Positions 8,283 to 38,815 of a DNA stretch of 64,000 bases are shown piece by piece. The notes beneath the pieces are model-generated. The model saw nothing but the letters and a program-made list of their open reading frames with translations. It was not told the origin of the DNA and made no database searches. How positions within the stretch are numbered: position 1 is the stretch's first letter; each line of letters begins with the position of its first letter. This DNA comes from Azolla caroliniana (lineage: Eukaryota; Plantae; Polypodiophyta): positions 6,758,001 to 6,822,000 of the forward strand of contig JBHGNT010000001.1 in the NCBI GenBank assembly GCA_043228905.1, given 5' to 3'. Both the position numbers and the translations under genes were made by a program.

Positions 8283-8460
8283 TAGGGGACAATAGGAATC
8301 GGCAACGGTTCGGTTTAGGTTTAACTAGTTTGGCCTTATCCAAGCCAAACCAGTTAAGCCTAAACCATTTTGGGGTTCTCAAACCTGAACCAAACCAAAC
8401 CAAACCAATCCCTAAATTGGTTTAGGCTAAAACCGGTTTGGCCTAATTAAGAACTGGTTT
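8283..8460. mobile_element. Probable terminus of a hAT-like non-autonomous DNA transposon
   Basis: Starts TAGGGG, followed by dense GGTTCGGTTT/AAACC subterminal motifs and an imperfect 25-bp-arm hairpin (8312-8366). The partner end was not found. Confidence 0.4.
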
Positions 8461-8829
8461 GGGACAAAAAAGCTTCAGAGGTGTGAAGAAACCCAAAAAC
8501 ACCAATACCACTTCTACTCTTCTTCTCCTCCTCATAACTCCTACCCCCTTGGCATGTCCCCCATTCCCATCCTTAGGAACCGGTTTGGGACGAAAAAGCT
8601 TTAGAGGTGTGAAGAAACCCAAAAAACACCATTAACACTTCTACTCTTCTTCTTCTCCTCGTAACACCCACCCCCTTGGCATATCCCCCATTCCCATCCT
8701 TAGGAACCGGTTTGGGACGAAAAAGCTTTAGAGGTGTGAAGAAACCCAAAAAACATCACCAACACTTCTACTCTTCTTCTTCTCCTCGTAACTCCCATCC
8801 CCTTGGCATATCTCCCATCCCCATCCTTC
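8451..8829. repeat. Tandem repeat, 3 copies of about 126-127 bp
   Basis: Units start GAAC(T/C)GGTTTGGGAC at 8451, 8577 and 8704. Confidence 0.9.
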
Positions 8830-10102: not shown

Positions 10103-10512
10103 TTTCACAATGCATATTTTATCACAAACAAGCATGAGAGTCAAAGTATCATACTTTGACGTAATGCATTACATTCTACCACATTTGAGTTTGCTTTCCA
10201 CACATCATCGATCTGGTTGATTGCCTACACACATACTTCTCACAATCACCATGTGTTCATCAATAAAATTCTTGAATATGGAGAGGCATTACTCAAATCC
10301 ACACATATTATGTAAAAACGTTTTAGATTTGGTTCCATAGGTCATATTTGACCTTTCAGGACAAAAAAAAATCTCCCTTTCTGTCACACACATTTGGATA
10401 GCATGAATCCACCCATACTTGTAAAGTTGTAACCATGATTTGTCTTATATTACAACTTTAGTCCCTAATAGATGTTTTTATTTTTGTTTCTCTTCCTTGT
10501 CTACTTGTTGGC

Positions 10513-10722
10513 TGTTACGGGCATGACCATTTAATATCCCGTGGTGAGAATTTACCGTAGTATTCTATACACGTGGATAAGTGTGAGGGTTAAACGAGAG
10601 TGTAAAGAAGGGGAGGATTACTTTTAATCCTCGGGATTGAGACAATCCTCACACTTATCCACGTGTATAGAATACTACGGTAAATTCTCACCACGGGATA
10701 TTAAATGGTCATGCCCGTAACA
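10513..10722. mobile_element. LTR-derived fold-back (hairpin) element with 76-bp perfect inverted arms and 5-bp TSD
   Basis: Arms 10513-10588 and 10647-10722 are exact reverse complements with TG...CA ends. TSD TTGGC at 10508-10512 and 10723-10727. The first 135 bp or so align with the left end of the solo LTR at 31309. Confidence 0.9.
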
Positions 10723-11305
10723 TTGGCCATGCGCTTGTATTTGCTGAATTCAGTGAAGGTTTAGACATGGCATTATTCCTAGCTCTTATTGCAATCGTGG
10801 TCATAGTAATTTGCTTTTTTGCACCCATTCATGTGTCTCTTTCTCCATTCGGATAATGTGCGCAAACGTATGAATCTTTTTTACCTCAATGTGGGTATTC
10901 ACATAAGTTGCCAAGTGAGGCGGTGAAGACAATGTCCAACAATGTTTTGTTATCACTTGGGGGTGGATCATTGTTGTCAGACTCTAACACATGCATGGTC
11001 ATGGTTGGTTTAGAGGATTTGTTATTTGTTGACCAATGTTTGGTCTTCAAACAAAACTCTTAGAGTGGGTGTGACCTCAAGCCATCCACTTCATTCGGTG
11101 ATCACCCTCAAGACATGCCAAATAGTACACCTCTTAGTTCAAACGTCTCTTTCTTGACCCCTCGATGTCACAGTTACATTAGTTACCGTGGTAAGTCTCA
11201 GTCCATCAAATGTAACATTGCAATGTAGACAAGGTCCAAGTATAACTCCTAAAATATCTCCTTGTCACACATGGATCAAAGTACAGTGGTTTGTGACCAA
11301 AGACC

Positions 11306-12087
11306 TGTTGTCCATAGGCCAGAAATGTAATTACAAAATATGTAAACTCGCCGGTAGGTAGAAAAGTAGGTGAGGAAATAGGTAGAACTAAAATAGTCGA
11401 GTTTTGAGCCCCTCACAATCAGCCGACGGCTCGACTCTGTGTAAAGAAGAAAACTATATAAGTTGAGACCTACATACCTCGACAGAGAGGGAGATATTCC
11501 TAGATTATTAGCAGGATTAGTATAGTAGCGCTTAGCTCTGCACAAGACTGTTTCCAGCTGAGAGCCATGTACTGTATTCATTGTGAGCTTTCTCATTTAA
11601 TATAAATCTTGCTCTTATTGTTCCTTCATCTATGTGTTCTCCCCGTACTCGTAATCCTAGCTACGTCTATGTCTACCGAGTTGTAGCCAGTGTACGCTCC
11701 CCGTTCCCCTAACGTCTTCTCGGTGTAGAAGAAGCCTTCACGTAACACGACCCCTTGATACCGATAGCCTGTGGGCACCAGATTATTATCAGGATTAGTA
11801 TAGTAGCGCTCAGCTCTACACCAGAATGTTTTCGGCCGAGAGCCATGTATTGTATTCATTGTGAGCTTTCTCATTTAATATAAATCTTGCTCTTATTGTT
11901 CCTTCATTTGTGTGTTCTCCCCGTACTCGTAAACCTAGCTACGTCTACGTCTACCGGGTTGTAGCCAGTGTACGCTCCCCGTTCCCCTAACGTCTTCTCG
12001 GTGTAGAAGAAGCCTTCACGTAACACGACCCCTTGATACTGATAGCCTGTGGGCTCATCGAAGGTGTTTCCTCCAAAATGGTTAACA
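11306..12087 (+). mobile_element. Solo LTR (782 bp) with internal 278-bp tandem duplication and 5-bp TSD
   Basis: TGTTG...TTAACA ends. TSD AGACC at 11301-11305 and 12088-12092. TATATAA at about 11456. Duplicated units start at 11503 and 11781. Confidence 0.85.
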
Positions 12088-16008: not shown

Positions 16009-17211
16009 TCACACATGCATGGTACATGATGCTTGGATGATGCCGCTGAAGCCAAGAAGCTTTCGCCAGGAGCCGGAGGCCGGGACAAACAGCCAGACGG
16101 AAGCTCTGCGGTCGGCCGAGTGGCTCAACCCTGACACAAGGATGTCCCCGGATTTCCGGAGCACGGTGGCGCACCTCGCTTCCTTGAGCTCCCTAGGAAG
16201 CTCGGTAATCTCGAACCAACGACCTTGCTCCTCCTCCTCCTCCTCCAACTTCCAAAGCTTCCCGTCCACCACGGCATACAAGATCTCCTTGACCGACACC
16301 ACCGCGCTAGGGGCTCGCCCCGGCATCCAAAAGTTGTCCATGGCCTCCCATCTCCCCGTGGCCGGGTCCCACGTCTCCGCGCTTGTGGCGAACTGGCCCT
16401 GTAATTCGGTCGAGTACCCGCTTATCACGACCACCTTGCCTCCGGGGACAGTGACTGCCTTGCACTCGTCCCGCGCCTCCTTCATGTCCGGCAAAGGGTG
16501 CCAGCAATCGGCGGCCACGTCGTAGATGTCCGCGCTCCGGAGGGCGTTCTTGTCCGAGTCGTGCCCGCCCGCCACCACTATGTTCCCGGACGAAGAAGCG
16601 GCACAGCCGAAGAAGGAGCGGGGGCTGGGCATATCGGAGCCCCGCCTCCACGTCCGGGAGGAGAGGTCGTATATGTAGACGGTCCGTAGGACCGCCCAAG
16701 TCTCGGGGTCCAATCCGCCCATCACTACCATCTTGCCCCCGGCGCTCGTGCACTGGGAGAAGAGCGGGATCCCTTTCTGCTTCAAATCGGATGGTAGCTC
16801 ATGTGGGAGTTGGCTCCACGAAGATCCATCATAGACGCTAATTCCGTAGGTAGGCTTTTTCTCCAATTTTGGTGGCGGCACACATTGGCTCGCCTCCTCT
16901 ACAGTTGGAGATTGTGATGGTGATGGTGATGGTGATGGTGATGGTGATGGTGATGGAGATGGAGATGGAGATGGAGATGGATCAAGATCCTCGACTGGTG
17001 GCACCGCTGCCTGCACAAAGCACGCATAGTCATCCGCGTACCCTAATTTGACCCTCGATTCACCGAAGGAGTCGCTCTCCACCACAGCTTTCCATGAGGT
17101 GCATACTCGGCGGAGATCTGAGTGAGAACCGGCAGGCACACGGTAGAGACAGTCGAGCGCCACATCATCAGGCAATGGCGGAATCATGGGTTGGGAATAG
17201 ACCAGAGACAT
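16009..17211 (-). CDS. F-box/kelch-repeat protein (KMD/KFB20/SKIP20-like clade), intronless
   Basis: F-box (MIPPLPDDVALDCLYRVP..LRRVCTSWK) and kelch repeats (MPSPRSFFGC, IVVAGGHDSDKNALRSA, PLPDMKEARDECKA, VISGYSTELQGQF..SAE.WDP). First ATG at 17211. A (Ser-Pro)n insert lies between the F-box and the kelch domain. Confidence 0.95.
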   Translation of the reverse strand: MSLVYSQPMIPPLPDDVALDCLYRVPAGSHSDLRRVCTSWKAVVESDSFGESRVKLGYADDYACFVQAAVPPVEDLDPSPSPSPSPSPSPSPSPSPSPSQSPTVEEASQCVPPPKLEKKPTYGISVYDGSSWSQLPHELPSDLKQKGIPLFSQCTSAGGKMVVMGGLDPETWAVLRTVYIYDLSSRTWRRGSDMPSPRSFFGCAASSSGNIVVAGGHDSDKNALRSADIYDVAADCWHPLPDMKEARDECKAVTVPGGKVVVISGYSTELQGQFATSAETWDPATGRWEAMDNFWMPGRAPSAVVSVKEILYAVVDGKLWKLEEEEEEQGRWFEITELPRELKEARCATVLRKSGDILVSGLSHSADRRASVWLFVPASGSWRKLLGFSGIIQASCTMHV

Positions 17212-17261
17212 CGGGTGGGGAGGGGCCGCAGACCGAATGGGGCTCTCAAACGCAAATAATT

Positions 17262-17470
17262 CAGTAACTATGGTTTGAAACAGGAATTTTGATCGGGAAG
17301 ATTCCGTTTTCCTACTTACAATCAAGATCAAGTTCAGTTATTGTTTGAAACATGAATTGATCGGGAAGATTTCGTTTTCCTTCTTCACGATCAAGATCAA
17401 AGTAAAGTTATTGTTTGAATCAGGAATTGATCGGGAAGATTTCGGTTTCCTTTCTTACAATCAAGATCGA
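17262..17470. repeat. Tandem repeat, 3 copies of about 69-70 bp in the 5' leader/promoter of the F-box gene
   Basis: TTTGAA.CA.GAATT(TT)GATCGGGAAGATT.CG.TTTCCT...CA..ATCAAGATC at about 17275, 17344 and 17414. Confidence 0.85.
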
Positions 17471-25400: not shown

Positions 25401-28400
25401 ACAATACAGAAAAGAATAATAACTTTGTGCATTTTAGTACCCAGAATTTTTGTGATCTCTCATAGCGAACACTGAATTATTACAACAAATTTATATAAAA
25501 ATGCCTAGAAAAAGAAATGGGTTTAGTACAGTGCCTAATGAAAACTTAATACCTATAAATGCTTCCTCACCGATCATCAAACCTCATAGTTCGCAGTCAG
25601 CACCTACTTACCCCTACACAAATGAGCAACTAAATTGTTGTTCGATAGAGCCATCAGAAACAACCAATGTCGTAGGGAAAAACATCCTTTATAATTCCCC
25701 AAAATCCTCCTGAACTTTCCATCCTACAAAGAGAATTCCAAACATCATGCAATGCACGAAAACAGTCATGTCTCCCAACTAACTAGAAGTCAAAGTTTAG
25801 GGAAAAGCTCCAAAGTAACTCATAGTTTTTCTTTATTTCCTTAACTGCCCCTAATTTCAATTATTTCCGAAAAGAACAATTTATATGTGATCTTCGACCA
25901 ATTCTATGCTATCCTCTGTTTCTTAATAACATGTGCTTTGTAGGCTTATGTCATCAATTCATCCGCCCTTTTTTCCCTTTCAGTGACTGAAAAAGAGAGC
26001 TGCGAGATACAACAAAATAGTAATATTTGGGGAAATAATAAAAAACATTGCGAGTATTTCAGAGTTCTTTTACCTAAATATTACTTAATCGAAAATTACA
26101 GATCACTCAATGAATTTGCCCAAACCTATCATTGGCTATGTAAATTGAACCATCTAATAGACATCATGACTTCCATATGCAATGAATGATTTACACGGGT
26201 TATTAAATAGATAGAATGAAGTATGCATGAAACATCTTTACCACTCATCCATAATCAGAAAGGCATAAATAAATCAGTCAGTCATAATCTAAAGTATTAA
26301 CAAGAGATATACTTGGAAAATTTTAAAACCCAAAATACCCAAGTTTTTCTTTATTTTCTAAAAAACCCTAAGTTCTTAGTATCCTTTATATGCAGTCAAA
26401 TAGTAAATTCATCCTCCTCCAAAGGCATCTGAGGAAAACAAAGTAATGCCTGGTTATTTCCCTAAATTAAATATTAATCTAGGAGTGAACTTTTCTAATC
26501 ACTTTGGTATAACAACTTGCCAATTACCTTCTTGCTTGCCTCTGTCTCCCTTGCTGCTTCGTTTTCTTTTGAAGATGACCTTGGTTTTGTACAATGAGAA
26601 CTGTCTTTCGTGGTGATCACATCAGCATCAGCCTTTGTAGATGGCATTTTCTTTCCCTTTTGTAAAGCTGTTCCTTTGCTACCTGTGGCCTTTTTCTTGA
26701 TATCCGAACATTGACCATTGTTATGATCAGCCTTTCTTTTTTTGTTTGGCTTTTCTTTCTTCTTTTTTACACTACTGATATCAGTCTGTGGAGACTTCTG
26801 GTTGAATAGCTGCCCATCTCTTCTCTTTGCAGAACGTGTATTATAATAACGAGACAAGAAAAACCCAATTGGCATGTCCATTTCATCATCCGTTGGCAAT
26901 TTAAAATTTTCTTTGGAAAACTCAGGCGCATCTTTTGTCTGAGTTTCAACCTCATTTTTGTTGTTCTCTTCTTGTAATGAGTCGTTATCAATCCATTTCT
27001 CTGATAGTTCACCTTCTTCAAGATCATCATTATCTTCTAGAGTAGTACTATGTACAGTATTTCCACTTTTTCCTTCATTTGAATCATCTACATTGCTACA
27101 TGGTAACAAAAAATCATCACACGACGAAAGGGATGATACTTCGTTCTTTTCATCGCATCTGTAAACCATTAAGGGCACCTCATGTTCTGTTTGAAAGCAT
27201 GAAACTTCTCTTCCTTCCTTTTCACATGGTATAGCAATATCAGCACAAGCAAAAGAAGAAGAGATGTTATTATTTTTATTGCATTCCATTGAGTTGTCCT
27301 CATTGTTACATGGTATAGCAATATCCTCACAGTGCAAAGAACAAGATGCCCTATTATTTCCATTGCTTTGCTTCAAGTTACACATATCGTTACATTGTAT
27401 AAGAATATCATCACAGTGCAAAGAGCATGATGATTCATTATTTTCATCCCCTTCAAATGTCCCGACAGATACCTCATGTCCTATTTGAATGCAGGAAATT
27501 TCTCCCCCTGGAACACCCTTTGAATCATCTACATTGCTACACAGTATAACAGTATCATCAAAAGGCAAAGAGCATGACACATCATTCTTTGCACTGTCTT
27601 CATTAACCCCTAAGGGCACCTCATCTCTACATAAACTGCCATTATGAATCATGTTAATATTATCCTCCATATCTGTTAGGTTACATGACCTTTGTCTCTG
27701 TATGTCTACAGGTATCACAAGATGTGAACTATTACATAAATTAATATTACGATTCATCTCCTCTTCATCTTGCATATCAACTTGTTTTGATGAAGTTTCT
27801 CTATGTATATCCATAGATACAGTAGGATACAAACTTTCACCTCCATCACTGTTATGAATCACATCCTCTTTATCTTGCAGATCACTTTGTTTGGATAGCA
27901 TTTCTTTGTGGAGATTCACATGCACCGTAAGATGTGAAATTTTGCATACATCACCATTACAAATCGTGCTGAATTCATTCTGCATATCACTTGGTTTCCA
28001 AGACACTTCTTTGTGCATATCCACAGGAGCCACAAAATGCGAAATTTCACTGCATACATCACCACTACAAAGCATGTTGGCTTCATTCTCCTTATTACAT
28101 TGTTTGTATAAAATTTCTCTGTGTATGTCCACAAGTGTCGCAGATCGTGAGCCACTACATGCATTTCCACTATCATGAATCGTGGCTTCTTCAACTAGGC
28201 TGCATAACATTTCTCTGTTTATACCAGTATCAGAAATTATGTTTTCTTTATCAACATTGTTGCATAACACTCCCCTATGAATATCCACATGTGCCACATT
28301 ATGTGAATCATTATGTGAATCCCCATAATCATGAGTTATGTTATCTTTCCCAACTTGGTTGTATAAGATTTTGGTGTGTATATCCACGTTTACTACATGA

Positions 28401-29530
28401 TGTGAGCCACTACAGCTTATATTATCTGTCTTGGAGTTCATATCATCAGATTTCGCATCATGCATATCAGCCAATTCAACATGAAACACTTGATCATCAA
28501 TACTCGAACAAAAGACATCATCGATGCCACTTATATCAAAAATTTCTTTTTGATTATATGAAATATTTCTGGATAAATCCCCATTAGAGAATGTTCTATC
28601 TTCATGCTTCATGTCCATTTGGTTGCATAATACTTCTCTGTGTAAACCATCATTTCTCTGTGGGTCATTGCGCCTTACATCAATCTTAGAAGGAACATCA
28701 GTATTCATTTCGATGACATCTATAATACCTGATATATTATAGTTTATATTCTCCAGCTCCAAAGCCATAGCGTGATGTATTTTGTCATTAGATTTGATGG
28801 TGTCCATCTTTGAAGGAACATCAGTATTCATTTCAATGACATCCATCTTAGAAGGAACATCAGTATTCATTTCAATGACATCCGTCTTAGAAGGAACATC
28901 AGTATTCATTTCGATGACATCTATAAAACCTGAACCCTTACAGTTTATATTCTCCAGCTTCAAAGCCATATCGTGATGTATTTCGCCATCAGATTTGATG
29001 GTATCCATGTTTGAAGACGTATCAAGATGCACTTCACCATTAAAGCTTGTATTACCCTTTCTAGAAGCCATATCGTTATGCATTTCGCCATCAGAGTGCA
29101 TTTGGAAAGGAAACATTTTTGAATCAGACCTCACAATGGTATCATCATCACTCATATTCACAACAATACGATCGCTAAAACGTGAAGATAAAGAAGCAGA
29201 GATGGCATCAATTCGATGAGGAAGACGCCCTTTGATGGATTTCTTGTTCTTACCTGAGCAATGAGAGAAAGTGAGAGGAGGAGGAGGAAGCCATGGAAGC
29301 TGAGGTTTGCTCAGCTCTCCAAGATTAGCGAAGAGAAACTCTGTGAACTTCAGGAATCGGTCTCGCAACCTGTGTGACGGAATAAAATCTTGAATCACTG
29401 GAGAAGAATGCAACGATGTTGATGTTGATGGTGATGGTGATGGTGATGGTAATGGTGATGGGGATGGAGCTGAAGAAATATTCCGACAATCTTCTTCTTC
29501 TCCATCTCCTTCATCCTCAGCTAGAGTCAT
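22439..29530 (-). CDS. Large zinc finger CCCH domain protein (3 CCCH fingers, C3H7/C3H65-like), about 1389 aa in 6 exons
   Basis: In-frame GT-AG exons: 29530-26528, 24289-24230, 24146-23985, 23882-23832, 23754-23614 and 23191-22439. Fingers are CQFYIKGKCNKGVDCSFSH, CKYFKNNCCLKGEDCLFSH and CKFFHTRGHCLDMESCRFSH, preceded by a DDLEEGEL motif and basic NLS-like tracts. Confidence 0.9.
24600..25800 (-). mobile_element. Possible old LINE remnant in intron 1 of the CCCH gene
   Basis: Broken frames include PPVCAFIWL..GL (zf-RVT-like) and FWGIIKDVF (RT-like). Heavily decayed. Confidence 0.3.
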
Positions 29531-29789
29531 CCTCGGTTCAGAGGAGATCTGCGCGGCGTGAAGAAGAAGAAAGGTAGAAAAACCCTAATTTTGTGCAGAC
29601 ACAGATTCTGAGAGGTTTTTCAAAGCGCCTAGTTTGTGTAGATATTTAGAAAAAAACCAGTATTGTATTAATTTGTTAATTATATGAGAAATTTACTATC
29701 TTTAATTACATATCTAAACATGGATTAATAACTTCAAAGAAACTAAACTTTCCTTTTTTCCTCCAAAATTTTCATTGAATTACATGCAT

Positions 29790-30716: not shown

Positions 30717-31308
30717 TATCAAATAGTTATTTGCATTTTGCTTTAGTACTTCAGGAACTACCAAAAAGTGGTGGCTAAGGTGATAAAGTCAAGATGGTAA
30801 AATGCAACAATAAAAATATTAACATGTATGGTTGAAGATCATTTCAATAACGGGACAAATGCTCCAACCAATTGATCAAGATACCTAACACGGTATCTAA
30901 GATCATGGAATTGATGCTTTATCAACTGAAGGCCTTATGATGACATCAAACTCTATGAACCACCAAAATGCGGTGGTGGAGAGGGTGAATGTAACAAGTT
31001 ACATGATCCTCTATCAAGGCAAAATGTAAGGATGATGTAAAAATATATACAAATAAGGATTTGAGTATGGGATGGATCATGATCTAAACAAGTGGTTAAA
31101 TTGATTGGTTCAATACAAGAGTAGCAATAAGTATTTGTGCCTTAATATTGGAGTATTCTATGAGCTAGTAAAAGGTAGTTGTCAATAGAGTGAATTTACA
31201 AGATCATCAATCCCCAATAAGCCTCTACATCTCTTGCTCTAATGCCACAATTTGGCTTGCAAGGTAAAGCTAGCTTAAATAGAATATGCATGATACATGT
31301 ATTCTTTC

Positions 31309-31766
31309 TGTTACAGGCATGACCATATAATATCCCGTGGTAAGTTTTACCGTAGTATTCTATACACGTGGATAAAGTGTGAGGGTTAAATGAGAGCGTA
31401 AAGAAGGGAAGGATTACTTTTAATCTTTGGGATTGGGACAACCCATTAGGCCAAGTGTGAACTTGCTTGGGGGTCAAACTCTTAGGTTTGGCTATAAATA
31501 TGAGGCCTAGCTACCCTCATTTGATATCTCTTGACTACATCGAAATTCTGTCCCTGTGGTGGGTCAACTCTTGTAGTGAGCGCGCCAATACCAAGTACGC
31601 CACAACACCACGACGATGGTATGGAACGCCGATGGAGGCTCAAGTCCGTCTTGATCCTTCGCTCGGGGGTGATCGAGTGGATCGACACCCTTTTTTCTCT
31701 CTCCTCTCTTATTTTTCTATTTATATTGTCCTTATCATATGCTTACATTAGTAGCTAGCTCTAACA
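31309..31766 (+). mobile_element. Solo LTR (458 bp) with 5-bp TSD
   Basis: TGTTA...TAACA ends. TSD CTTTC at 31304-31308 and 31767-31771. GGCTATAAATA TATA box at about 31490. Confidence 0.9.
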
Positions 31767-32426
31767 CTTTCTTACCAATAAGCTCCATTTTTACAAACTC
31801 TCTAACAAAAGAAGAAGTTGAATCGGAAACAATGTTGAACTCGAGAAACAATATAGGAAAACCAACTCATTTATTTACAAGAAGAACAAAATTGCTTATT
31901 TATAGATGCCTACATTAGGTAGTTGTAGATGGTACCTACATGTGTAGGGTGTAAAGATAATCCTACATATAAGCATGGAGAGAGAGACATTGTAAACTCT
32001 TGGCCATTTGTGACCTTTTGGTGGGAGACTGTAGAAAATAGGACACTTTAAGGAAAACTTGTCAAATTAGTGTGAATCCTCCCCCTGATTATATAAGACG
32101 GAGAAAAGAGGCTTGAAGAGTGGTGGCTTGTGTATGAGTTTTTGTGTGGTCAATTGAGTGAATGTTGATCACTACGTGAAAGATCCTACAGTATACTATT
32201 ATTTGTGTGAAGGTCAAGCACAACCCTCTGTTTCTATTTGGTGTATTTTGTCTGTCTCTCTCGTAAATCAATGTTTGTTATTAAAACAAGATGACAATAA
32301 AACCCTTGCTATCTTCACTACTTCATAAATAGTGATAGTGCAAGGGAAACACTCTCAAGTGTTGCAAAACTAGATGACGTTTCTCTATCTCCTCTTGGGA
32401 CAATGTCCCCATACAACACAGATGTG

Positions 32427-37011: not shown

Positions 37012-38815
37012 ATATTTGTATTCCATACCATGGAAGATATATCTATCTAATGCAGTGTTGTATAGTATCATCAGAAATCCATGCGGAGTAGGTTGACATT
37101 TTGAGATATGTGTGTGTGAATGTGTGTTGATGATGATACTATACAACACTGTATTATATAGATATATCTTCCATAGTATGTAATACAAAATAACATCCCA
37201 TGATTTTAAGATAATAATACTGCAGAAATTCATGATCAAATCATGAACGAAGAACCATTAAATTTGTGGTGAAAGAAAATGTAGCTCTAATAATTCTTTT
37301 CATGGGAGCTCCCCATTATAAAGGGATATAAAGCTAATGTTTCAAAAGATTTCTGATGATATCTTCGAGGTTTCTATTTTCAAACAAGTTAATATTGACA
37401 GTATAAATGTGTGTGTAATATATGTTGCTGTAACTGACTGACTATGTAGAAAACCAGATAACACATCCTGGTATTTACCTATGCCCATGGAATCTCTCCT
37501 ACTTTCCAGCTGTGAGAATACTTGAATCTCCCTTCTTGCTGATACTGAGAATACCTACCCAATCCATTAAACACACACTCATAACAAATTCCATGATCTA
37601 CCTGACATGCCTTTCACTTTGATGATTCATCCAGATACCAAATCTAGCATAACCACAATCATAATCATTATCAGTCATTCAAAACTTATCTCTTTGACCT
37701 CAAGTATCATCCCAAAATGAGACATGATCTTGTGGCAAACCACAACAAAGAAACGAGGTTAGTTTAGACTAGAAGAGATTCAAAAATGTATCATAATATA
37801 ACCTCTTCATGATTACACAATGCACACTACATATCTTTTCAACCAATACCCAACAACACATAATCGTTTACAGACCCGCATGATATTTAATTTCCCAATA
37901 GCACATCCAGAGAGAGAATTAGCATGTCCAAACAGACATTTTGCGCTCTCGATCAGCAGTGATCTCTTGGCAGAATCTTTGCTAGATAGCAAGGTCTTTT
38001 GAATGGATGAGATATGAACTTTGAACACACCTCCAAGAACTTTTAGTAATCCATCAACATAATCTTGAATGTGGATTATTCCCATCTCGGACATGTAGCT
38101 CAAAAATGCTAAAATAACGAAAATAAAATTTCAAGATACCTTTTTGGAAAGTTATCCATTAGTACGAAATATACTTTTAACATCAAGAATGTACACTTCT
38201 TTAAGGGTTCCCACAACCATCAAAATGAAGATACATAAATACACCAAGTCCCTGCTTTACATAGCAGGGGAGCAATCCATCTCAATGGTTTAGTACTTAT
38301 CAGGGCTTCCAAGCATCACATAAACACTATTCTTTATGTTACAATGTGATCTTTGTATCAGCTTCTTTTATCCGAGTATATCTCAAGATGTATTATAATT
38401 CTCTGGTTCAATCTCCTCTCCTCTCTTCTCTGTCTCACCAACTCCACACTCTGTGAAAATGGTTTGCATTGTTGTCAGATGTCCTATTTGACCTCCAAGG
38501 ATGATTACAAAATCTGTATCTCTCTCTCTCTCTGGTGGGGGGGTGGGGGGGGGAAATATACAAAATTTAGCCTCAGCTCTCCTACATGCTCAATCCAGTA
38601 TTGTTATCAAGAGCATCGAAAGTTCCTATATATTCCATCCTGCATAGACATGGCTGTGCATTTGCAGGTACATGAACACACAAAGTTGGATGTACTCTTG
38701 AAGGAATTGGAATCACCATGAATAATTTATTTTCCAGTCTTCCAGCATGAATCTTTCTCGTCACTCCACAAACATCGCCCCATGTAAAGAAGCAAATAGA
38801 TTATGCAAAAATCTT

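What the first reader, a model, noticed from the sequence alone, without database searches (positions are those of the whole stretch)
10513..10722. Palindromic mini-element made from two inverted LTR left ends, inserted with its own 5-bp TSD
Seen: 76-bp perfect inverted arms around a 58-nt loop, TG...CA termini and a TTGGC direct repeat on both sides. The first 135 bp or so (arm plus loop) are collinear with the left end of the normal solo LTR at 31309-31766, roughly 90% identical by eye. That end is U3 judging by the TATA position. The sequence then turns back and copies its own start. The turn point has microhomology: the LTR has GACAACCC here, complementary to GGGTT at the end of the arm. 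Established: LTR-retrotransposon integrases join TG..CA ends and create 5-bp TSDs, and small LTR derivatives such as TRIMs have direct rather than inverted repeats. Inference: a snap-back or template-switch product with two U3 ends was integrated by the retro-integrase. The result is a MITE-shaped element of retrotransposon origin, and a ready-made hairpin that could yield siRNA or miRNA against its parent family. Perfect arms suggest a recent origin.
Basis: partly seen in the sequence, partly recalled or inferred. Interest (0 to 1): 0.78.

Follow-up and report, generated by a model that had tools for sequence, protein, structure and literature searches.

The report
Two-headed LTR hairpin from retrotransposon miscopying
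This 210-base hairpin is two facing copies of the start of a plant jumping gene's end repeat, flanked by a 5-base insertion scar at a site that is empty in related organisms; it is likely a copying accident that the element's own integrase still pasted in, and sister hairpins of the same family show that such forms arise repeatedly.

Summary
Confirmed. 10513-10722 has 76-bp perfect inverted arms, a 58-nt spacer, TG..CA ends and TTGGC on both sides. Both outer junctions recur in 3 of 4 runs laid (three studies), and two related organisms carry the empty site with one TTGGC. Bases 1-136 differ at 2 sites from a young copy of a high-copy LTR family with a Met-type primer site, a polypurine tract and a chromodomain remnant (likely a Ty3/gypsy chromovirus), so both ends are U3 ends, not DNA-transposon TIRs. 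The turn lies at a 5-nt inverted microhomology. Among 18 scorable family loci, 2 more U3-U3 fold-backs with other turn points run to the exact LTR start, one with a 4/5 target duplication. Best reading (0.68): abortive plus-strand DNAs fold back or prime each other, giving a mini-cDNA with two U3 ends that integrase inserts. No sign of MITE-like amplification; small RNA untested. The scan noted inverted-LTR insertions before on other DNA (e1-9818888, e1-10279157, e1-10619871).

The parts
10508..10512 (.). left copy of the 5-bp target-site duplication TTGGC
   Evidence: single copy at the empty site in X6 and X13
10513..10588 (+). left arm: LTR bases 1-76 (U3 end, starts TG)
10587..10591 (+). 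GGGTT, LTR 75-79: landing site of the inferred template switch
10589..10646 (+). 58-nt spacer: LTR bases 77-134 in forward orientation
10644..10648 (+). turn point, AATCC (family copies read AACCC, the complement of GGGTT); base 10646 differs from 13 of 13 family loci that read normally through it
10647..10722 (-). right arm: inverted copy of LTR bases 76-1 (second U3 end, ends CA); last 5 bases also equal the LTR's own 3' end
10723..10727 (.). right copy of the target-site duplication TTGGC
31309..31766 (+). ordinary 458-bp solo LTR of the parent family (another subfamily, 90.5% over bases 1-136), TG..CA, CTTTC duplication at 31304-31308 and 31767-31771, TATA-like motif at 31493; comparison copy, not part of the hairpin

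Best explanation
The 210-bp element is two inverted U3 ends of a high-copy plant LTR family, joined at a 5-nt microhomology and flanked by a 5-bp duplication at a site that is empty in relatives; it likely arose as a miscopied plus-strand DNA inside the element's particle and was likely inserted by the element's integrase through its two U3 ends. Steps. Shown: sequence anatomy, U3 identity, microhomology, TSD, empty site, sister fold-backs. Inferred: (1) plus-strand synthesis started at the polypurine tract and stopped or was displaced near base 136; (2) its 3' end AACCC paired with GGGTT (75-79) of the same strand, or of a second abortive plus strand ending there; (3) reverse transcriptase copied back to base 1; mutual priming of two plus strands would give the whole duplex at once, whereas a one-strand hairpin would need a further priming event; (4) integrase joined both CA ends across a 5-bp stagger. 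The product has no primer site, polypurine tract, R or TATA motif, so it is predicted to be dead on arrival; each sister element would be a separate accident rather than a copy.
For: Empty site with one TTGGC in 2 of 4 runs laid (X6, X13). Outer junctions in 3 of 4 runs. Parent family: polypurine tract plus 2 nt before TG (L031, L018), 2 nt plus Met-type primer site after CA (L037/L048); chromodomain just before the tract in L018 (PF00385, E 5.6e-5, 23.4 bits, under the 25.1 cut-off). Both arms share a rare variant (T at base 19, in 2 of 60 loci), so both were copied from one subfamily template. A junction microhomology of 5 nt or more falls at 0.5% of random fold-back junctions in this LTR. 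Sister fold-backs found by a motif inside one arm, not by shape: L009 (77 bp, turn at CACG, flanks CGTAT/CGTAC; chance of 4/5 or better 0.019) and L007 (108 bp), both running to LTR base 1 and then into unrelated DNA. Their arms differ from each other mostly by C-to-T/G-to-A changes (3 of 3 in L009, 4 of 6 in L007), which fits decay in the genome. A chromosomal event would have had 8-12 (L009), 18-19 (L007) and 16-21 (window) exits of 5 nt or more to choose from; both unselected cases leaving at the terminus has odds of about 1 in 144 to 1 in 228 if exits are equally likely. 0 of 18 scorable places show a fold-back that returns into the downstream LTR. In Ty3 the tract primes plus strands repeatedly and displaced dead-end plus strands accumulate in particles (PMC5371799, passages).
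Against: The right-hand TAACA is also the LTR's natural 3' end, so no single locus proves that integrase met two U3 ends. L007 has no clean TSD in register (AAGTT left, TGTTA right; 4/5 only one base out of register) and ends TA. A contig in X1 and X2 (records 7 and 15) follows the same turn point at about 88% but leaves the arm near LTR base 41, short of the terminus. L002 is an LTR stub ending at base 66 with a perfect TCTAG duplication, so shortened forms that keep a TSD also arise in other ways. The scorable loci are few and biased to contigs that escape collapse. The equal-exit assumption is rough. No gag-pol of the family was found, and no paper in the library searched shows U3-U3 integration in vivo.
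Confidence: 0.68

Rival explanations
1. An ordinary element (or solo LTR) inserted first and made the TTGGC duplication; later a replication or repair polymerase folded back at AACCC/GGGTT, copied bases 74-1, and returned to the template at the LTR's own terminal TAACA, deleting the rest of the element.
For: The LTR has a 5-bp terminal inverted repeat, and the element shares exactly 5 terminal bases with the LTR's 3' end, so the end product is identical. Chromosomal fold-back inversions start from stems as short as 4 bp and can be resolved by microhomology in yeast (PMC7467729, passages). Records 7/15 leave the arm before the terminus; L002 keeps a TSD after losing most of the LTR.
Against: The terminal exit is one of 16-21 equally long exits and the farthest one. 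Both sister fold-backs seen whole also exit at base 1. No run laid shows an intact LTR at this site: 3 carry the hairpin, 2 the clean empty site, and X3's second allele lacks the site; only 7 of 22 listed runs were laid.
Confidence: 0.24
2. A second family member inserted in reverse inside the first LTR, and two later microhomology deletions trimmed the nest to 210 bp.
For: Nesting into the same family is known in plant Ty3/gypsy elements (PMC6911290, passages); 3 of 18 scorable places show this LTR broken off by other sequence (L005, L010/L056, L018).
Against: Needs three events within a short time; both arms carry the rare T19 variant (2 of 60 loci); LTRs are not common nesting targets in that paper's abstract.
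Confidence: 0.04
3. The 76-bp arm is the terminal inverted repeat of a DNA transposon, and the element is a MITE moved by a transposase.
For: Shape only: small, inverted ends, TSD, no coding capacity.
Against: The arm is the first 76 bp of a 454-458-bp LTR that follows a polypurine tract and precedes a primer site; 12 of 18 scorable places continue as normal LTR; no high-depth contig crosses the junction (at base 10646 the summed depth with the window's letter is at most about 5 single copies in X1 and X2); a two-arm pattern with total gap 115-175 found 0 metagenome matches; sisters have different turn points.
Confidence: 0.03
4. Assembly or library chimera.
For: The turn point itself is not bridged by a displayed contig with the window's letters; X1 may be the source sample.
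Against: Both inverted outer junctions stand in X2 and X3, other samples and studies with their own flank differences; TSD matches the empty site.
Confidence: 0.01

Closest known systems
Ty3/gypsy chromovirus LTR retrotransposons and their solo LTRs (REXdb classification, PMC6317226, passages read)
   Same: Sequence is the family's U3 end; TG..CA ends; 5-bp TSD; parent has Met-type primer site, polypurine tract and a chromodomain remnant.
   Different: Two U3 ends facing each other instead of U3 and U5; no R, U5, primer site, tract or coding region. Clade within the chromoviruses not determined.
Dead-end plus-strand strong-stop DNAs of Ty3 and Ty1 (PMC5371799, passages read)
   Same: The proposed raw material: displaced plus strands that begin at the U3 end.
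   Different: Described as unintegrated by-products in yeast particles; fold-back or mutual priming followed by integration is not described in the passages read.
TRIMs and LARDs (PMC7215508, passages read)
   Same: Short, non-coding LTR derivatives with TSDs that rely on an autonomous partner.
   Different: TRIMs have two LTRs around a primer site and tract and are copied through RNA; this element has inverted part-LTRs and neither signal.
MITEs of DNA transposons (PMC3814204, abstract read)
   Same: Small size, inverted ends, TSD, microhomology at the formation junction.
   Different: Ends come from a retrotransposon LTR; no transposase partner; no amplification seen.
Mu killer and Ac killer loci of maize (bioRxiv 10.1101/2020.01.07.897926, passages read)
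   Same: Inverted duplication of an element's 5' terminal sequence made by an aberrant event, able in principle to give hairpin RNA against the parent family.
   Different: Those come from DNA transposons, the Ac ones are kilobases long, and they are shown to be transcribed and to silence; here 76-bp arms, no promoter core, no RNA evidence.
Ty1 artificial transposons with U3 ends on both sides, and retroviral mini-donor substrates (recalled; not found)
   Same: Would show that an integrase can join two like ends.
   Different: In vitro constructs, not natural products; from memory only.
DIRS elements with inverted terminal repeats (search listing only)
   Same: Retroelements with inverted repeats.
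   Different: Use a tyrosine recombinase, not a DDE integrase, by the abstracts listed; the repeats here derive from an ordinary direct-LTR family.

Membership tests
Derivative of an LTR retrotransposon family | Sequence is collinear with a bona fide LTR (TG..CA, TSD, tract before, primer site after) | tested here: met
   134 of 136 bases equal to L024; solo LTR with CTTTC duplication; tract in L031/L018; primer site in L037/L048
Derivative of an LTR retrotransposon family | 5-bp TSD made at insertion (single copy at the empty site) | tested here: met
   X6 and X13
Ty3/gypsy chromovirus (parent family) | Chromodomain at the end of pol, before the polypurine tract | tested here: inconclusive
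   PF00385 E 5.6e-5 in L018, 23.4 bits against a cut-off of 25.1; a like remnant with stops in L031
Ty3/gypsy chromovirus (parent family) | RT-RH-INT order and RT phylogeny | not testable with these tools
   no gag-pol in the loci examined (L018, L024, L031, L037, L038, L048); no whole genome held
TRIM | Two direct LTRs with primer site and polypurine tract between them | tested here: not met
   inverted arms; spacer is LTR 77-134; no primer-site motif in the element
MITE | Terminal inverted repeats and TSD, non-coding, short | tested here: met
MITE | Ends shared with a DNA transposase element | tested here: not met
   the arm is an LTR start in 60 loci; no transposase search was possible genome-wide
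MITE | Many near-identical copies at different sites | tested here: not met
   depth across base 10646 of a few single copies at most; indirect; 0 matches
Killer locus (Muk/Ac killer type) | Inverted duplication of the element's terminal sequence | tested here: met
Killer locus (Muk/Ac killer type) | Transcribed to hairpin RNA, yields siRNAs, silences the family in trans | not testable with these tools
   only assembled contigs were on offer and none was recorded as small RNA

The most novel reading that the evidence does not exclude
LTR retrotransposons routinely spin off short U3-U3 palindromes by mutual priming of abortive plus strands, their integrase inserts them genome-wide, and these TSD-flanked hairpins form an unrecognised class of self-made silencing loci (and of false 'MITEs') that seed small RNA against the U3 promoter region of the parent family.
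Probability: 0.15. Interest if true: 0.8.

Novelty: new variant of a known kind. Interest (0 to 1): 0.5.

Why it matters
It is a well-supported natural footprint of what a plant retro-integrase likely accepts (two like ends on a DNA of only 77-210 bp) and of errors in plus-strand synthesis, which have been studied mostly in yeast particles. Because the family made such hairpins several times with different turn points, a genome census can test the mechanism directly. It also warns that some elements annotated as MITEs or hairpin-RNA genes may be LTR by-products, and offers a route by which a retrotransposon could create hairpin loci against itself. As a single locus it is probably inert.

Tried and rejected
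No whole genome is held, so the genome-wide junction count could not be run. Rfam: 0 matches in the window. Family motif in viral contigs: 0. Two-arm pattern in metagenome contigs: 0; it needs exact motifs and a total gap of 115-175, so it could not have found L007 or L009. One protein search gave only 26-43% plant-type hits and did not name the organism; 'fern' comes from unchecked earlier notes. X14 gave only a piece at 10884-10985 with unrelated loose ends, and X11 laid nothing: no evidence either way. X3's second allele joins 10508 to 10745, 21 bases more than a clean empty site, so it was not counted as one. Two RNA-guessed runs of the same species label hold 0.00 of the words and six other RNA or RNA-guessed runs 0.04-0.07; none was laid, so they say nothing on expression. 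I first read the seven joints with coordinate sums 85-89 as artefacts of a weak internal palindrome at LTR 22-67; that palindrome is not significant in the solo LTR (182 of 500 shuffles as good), and L009 shows a real turn there, so most may be L009-type fold-backs; their short sides (21-30 nt) keep them as candidates only. ORFs around the element were listed but not searched further. Literature searches found no description of a natural U3-U3 mini-element; the library lacks most subscription and older papers, and no supplements were read.

Full report
OBSERVATION. The window is plant DNA (F-box/kelch and PPR genes, LINE-type RT fragments); no whole genome is held. At 10513-10722 the arms are perfectly complementary for 76 bp around a 58-nt spacer, the ends are TG..CA, and TTGGC lies on both sides. 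Folding is far beyond chance (z -23.3; 0 of 200 shuffles). Bases 1-136 are collinear with the 458-bp solo LTR at 31309-31766 (90.5%), which has its own CTTTC duplication. The LTR reads AACCC at 132-136 and GGGTT at 75-79; the element reads AATCC at the turn.

IS IT REAL, AND IS THE REPEAT A TSD? One search listed 22 runs, 5 holding half or more of the words. I laid 7 different runs of the 22. In one search (X1, X2, X3, X6), X1, X2 and X3 (three samples, three studies, two organism labels) each have one contig from the left flank into the left arm and one from the right arm into the right flank, at single-copy depth; X1 may be the source sample, but X2 and X3 carry their own flank differences (1 letter; 2 letters and 2 gaps). 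No displayed contig crosses the turn point with the window's own letters; the tables were cut. In one search (X6, X13, X14, X11), X6 and X13, two other organisms whose right flank differs by 32 and 35 letters in 278, run from the left flank (window 10479-10507, one substitution and one extra T) straight into a single TTGGC and on into the right flank. X14 and X11 were uninformative. X3 also has a second, about 90% allele that lacks the element plus 21 further bases. One mismatch in 79 bp gives 0.5-1.3 Myr (upper bound 2.3-6.3 Myr) under three substitution rates assumed from memory; hairpin arms can be homogenised, so this is rough.

THE PARENT FAMILY. It is high-copy: 1491-2490 contigs were laid per run, with many different flanks at the LTR start. 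A 21-base motif found 60 metagenome loci, 56 distinct by flank; whether they come from the window's own species is not known. L031 and L018 show a polypurine tract and 2 bases before TG; L037/L048 show 2 bases and a Met-type primer site after CA (the primer-site motif is as given in PMC7215508, passages). So the duplicated end is U3, independently of the TATA argument. The reading frame before the tract in L018 matches the Chromo domain (E 5.6e-5, just under the gathering score). Chromodomains were found only in chromoviruses in PMC6317226 (passages), so the parent is likely a Ty3/gypsy chromovirus; no gag-pol was recovered to confirm it. Element bases 1-136 differ from the high-coverage copy L024 at only two sites: T19, present in both arms and in 2 of 60 loci, and T134, absent from the 13 of 13 loci that read normally through it. 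The template therefore had a perfect AACCC/GGGTT match, and T134 likely came later. A match of 5 nt or more occurs at 0.5% of random fold-back junctions in this LTR.

SISTER ELEMENTS. Twenty of the 60 loci (18 distinct places) run at least 138 bases past the LTR start; the other 40 end too early to score. Of the 18, 12 continue as normal LTR, 4 break off, and 2 fold back. L009 is 77 bp, TG..CA, turns at CACG within a 9-of-10 inverted match, and is flanked by CGTAT/CGTAC. L007 is 108 bp, older, ends TA, has about 1 nt of microhomology and no clean TSD. Both fold strongly (z -7.5 and -13.4; the normal LTR start gives 0.57), and their arms have drifted apart mainly by C-to-T and G-to-A changes, which argues against library chimeras although the contigs have low coverage. 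One search shows further candidate junctions at low depth: LTR 58 plus 13 nt to inverted 59 (X1 and X6, at least 50 letters each side), LTR 100 plus 12 nt to inverted 33 (X1, X2, X3), several short-sided joints of the L009 type, and a contig (records 7, 15) with the window's turn point at about 88% that leaves the arm near base 41. Their ends and TSDs could not be seen. Different turn points and subfamilies mean repeated independent formation. At base 10646 the summed depth is about 5, 4-5 and 2-3 single copies for the window's letter in X1, X2 and X3, and the 10 contigs with C in X1 average single-copy depth, so there is no sign of an amplified family (indirect; depth is not a copy number).

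MECHANISM. In Ty3 the tract primes plus strands repeatedly and displaced dead-end plus strands accumulate in particles (PMC5371799, passages). A plus strand ending at AACCC can pair with GGGTT of itself or of a second plus strand ending there; copying to base 1 gives a DNA with two U3 ends, directly double-stranded in the two-strand version. Integrase joining both CA ends explains the TSD. These steps are inferred. The rival is a chromosomal double switch: the LTR's own terminal repeat is 5 bp and the element shares exactly those 5 bases with the LTR's 3' end, so a resident LTR could be rewritten to the same sequence and keep its TSD; yeast fold-backs start from stems as short as 4 bp (PMC7467729, passages). 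Against it, the terminal exit is one of 16-21 exits of 5 nt or more for this element, 8-12 for L009 and 18-19 for L007, yet both unselected sisters end at base 1, and 0 of 18 places return into the downstream LTR. For it, records 7/15 stop short, L007's TSD is unclear, and L002 is an LTR stub with a perfect TSD. I put the integrase route at 0.68 and the chromosomal route at 0.24.

FUNCTION. The element lacks the TATA motif (LTR base 185), R, primer site and tract, so it is predicted to be unable to copy itself and would need read-through from the flank to give hairpin RNA. The nearest recognised gene downstream is the F-box/kelch frame at 16009-17337. No RNA data were laid. The parallel with Mu killer and Ac killer (bioRxiv 10.1101/2020.01.07.897926, passages) is structural only.

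WHAT IS KNOWN. It is not a TRIM and not a MITE by membership, though it has a MITE's shape (PMC3814204, abstract). Ten library searches found no natural U3-U3 mini-element; the library lacks most subscription and older papers, where in vitro two-U3 substrates are described as I recall. Earlier unchecked notes of this scan report inverted-LTR insertions with one TSD in two other genomes and a two-tail-end Copia insertion in this genome; I did not test them and do not count them as support.

VERDICT. A real, young, TSD-flanked U3-U3 fold-back derivative of an LTR family, one of several formed independently; likely an integrated reverse-transcription by-product; probably inert. New variant of a known kind; interest 0.5.

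Noticed in passing
L009:1153-1229: 77-bp U3-U3 fold-back of the same family, TG..CA, flanks CGTAT/CGTAC, turn at CACG.
   Followed up: yes
L007:43-150: 108-bp older U3-U3 fold-back, ends TG..TA, TSD unclear.
   Followed up: yes
L002:559-671 (minus strand): 113-bp LTR stub with an internal tandem duplication, ending at LTR base 66, flanked by a perfect TCTAG repeat; a separate 129-bp imperfect hairpin lies at 944-1072.
   Followed up: partly
records 7 and 15 (laid on window 10599-10682): A single-copy contig in X1 and X2 follows the same turn point with C at base 134 at about 88% identity and leaves the arm near LTR base 41.
   Followed up: no
joints 10570-10664 and 10612-10690: Further candidate fold-back junctions of the family, the first shared by X1 and X6.
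   Followed up: partly
window 37015-37189: A second hairpin, 59-nt arms at 93%, AT-rich, ATA on both sides; looks like an ordinary MITE-type element.
   Followed up: no
L037:50-591 (minus strand): Two frames downstream of the primer site read like fragments of plastid ndhH (likeness recalled; no Pfam hit); captured organellar DNA or a chimeric contig.
   Followed up: partly
window 11502-12054 and 8447-8828: Tandem arrays of 278 bp (2 copies, 94%) and 127 bp (3 copies, 92%) on either side of the element.
   Followed up: no
window 26495-29584 (minus strand): 1029-codon open frame with several internal tandem repeats and no Pfam match.
   Followed up: no
X3 allele laid on window 10250-10508 and 10745-10997: Run X3 holds two alleles at equal depth, one like the window and one about 90% alike without the element, as a hybrid or allopolyploid would.
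   Followed up: partly
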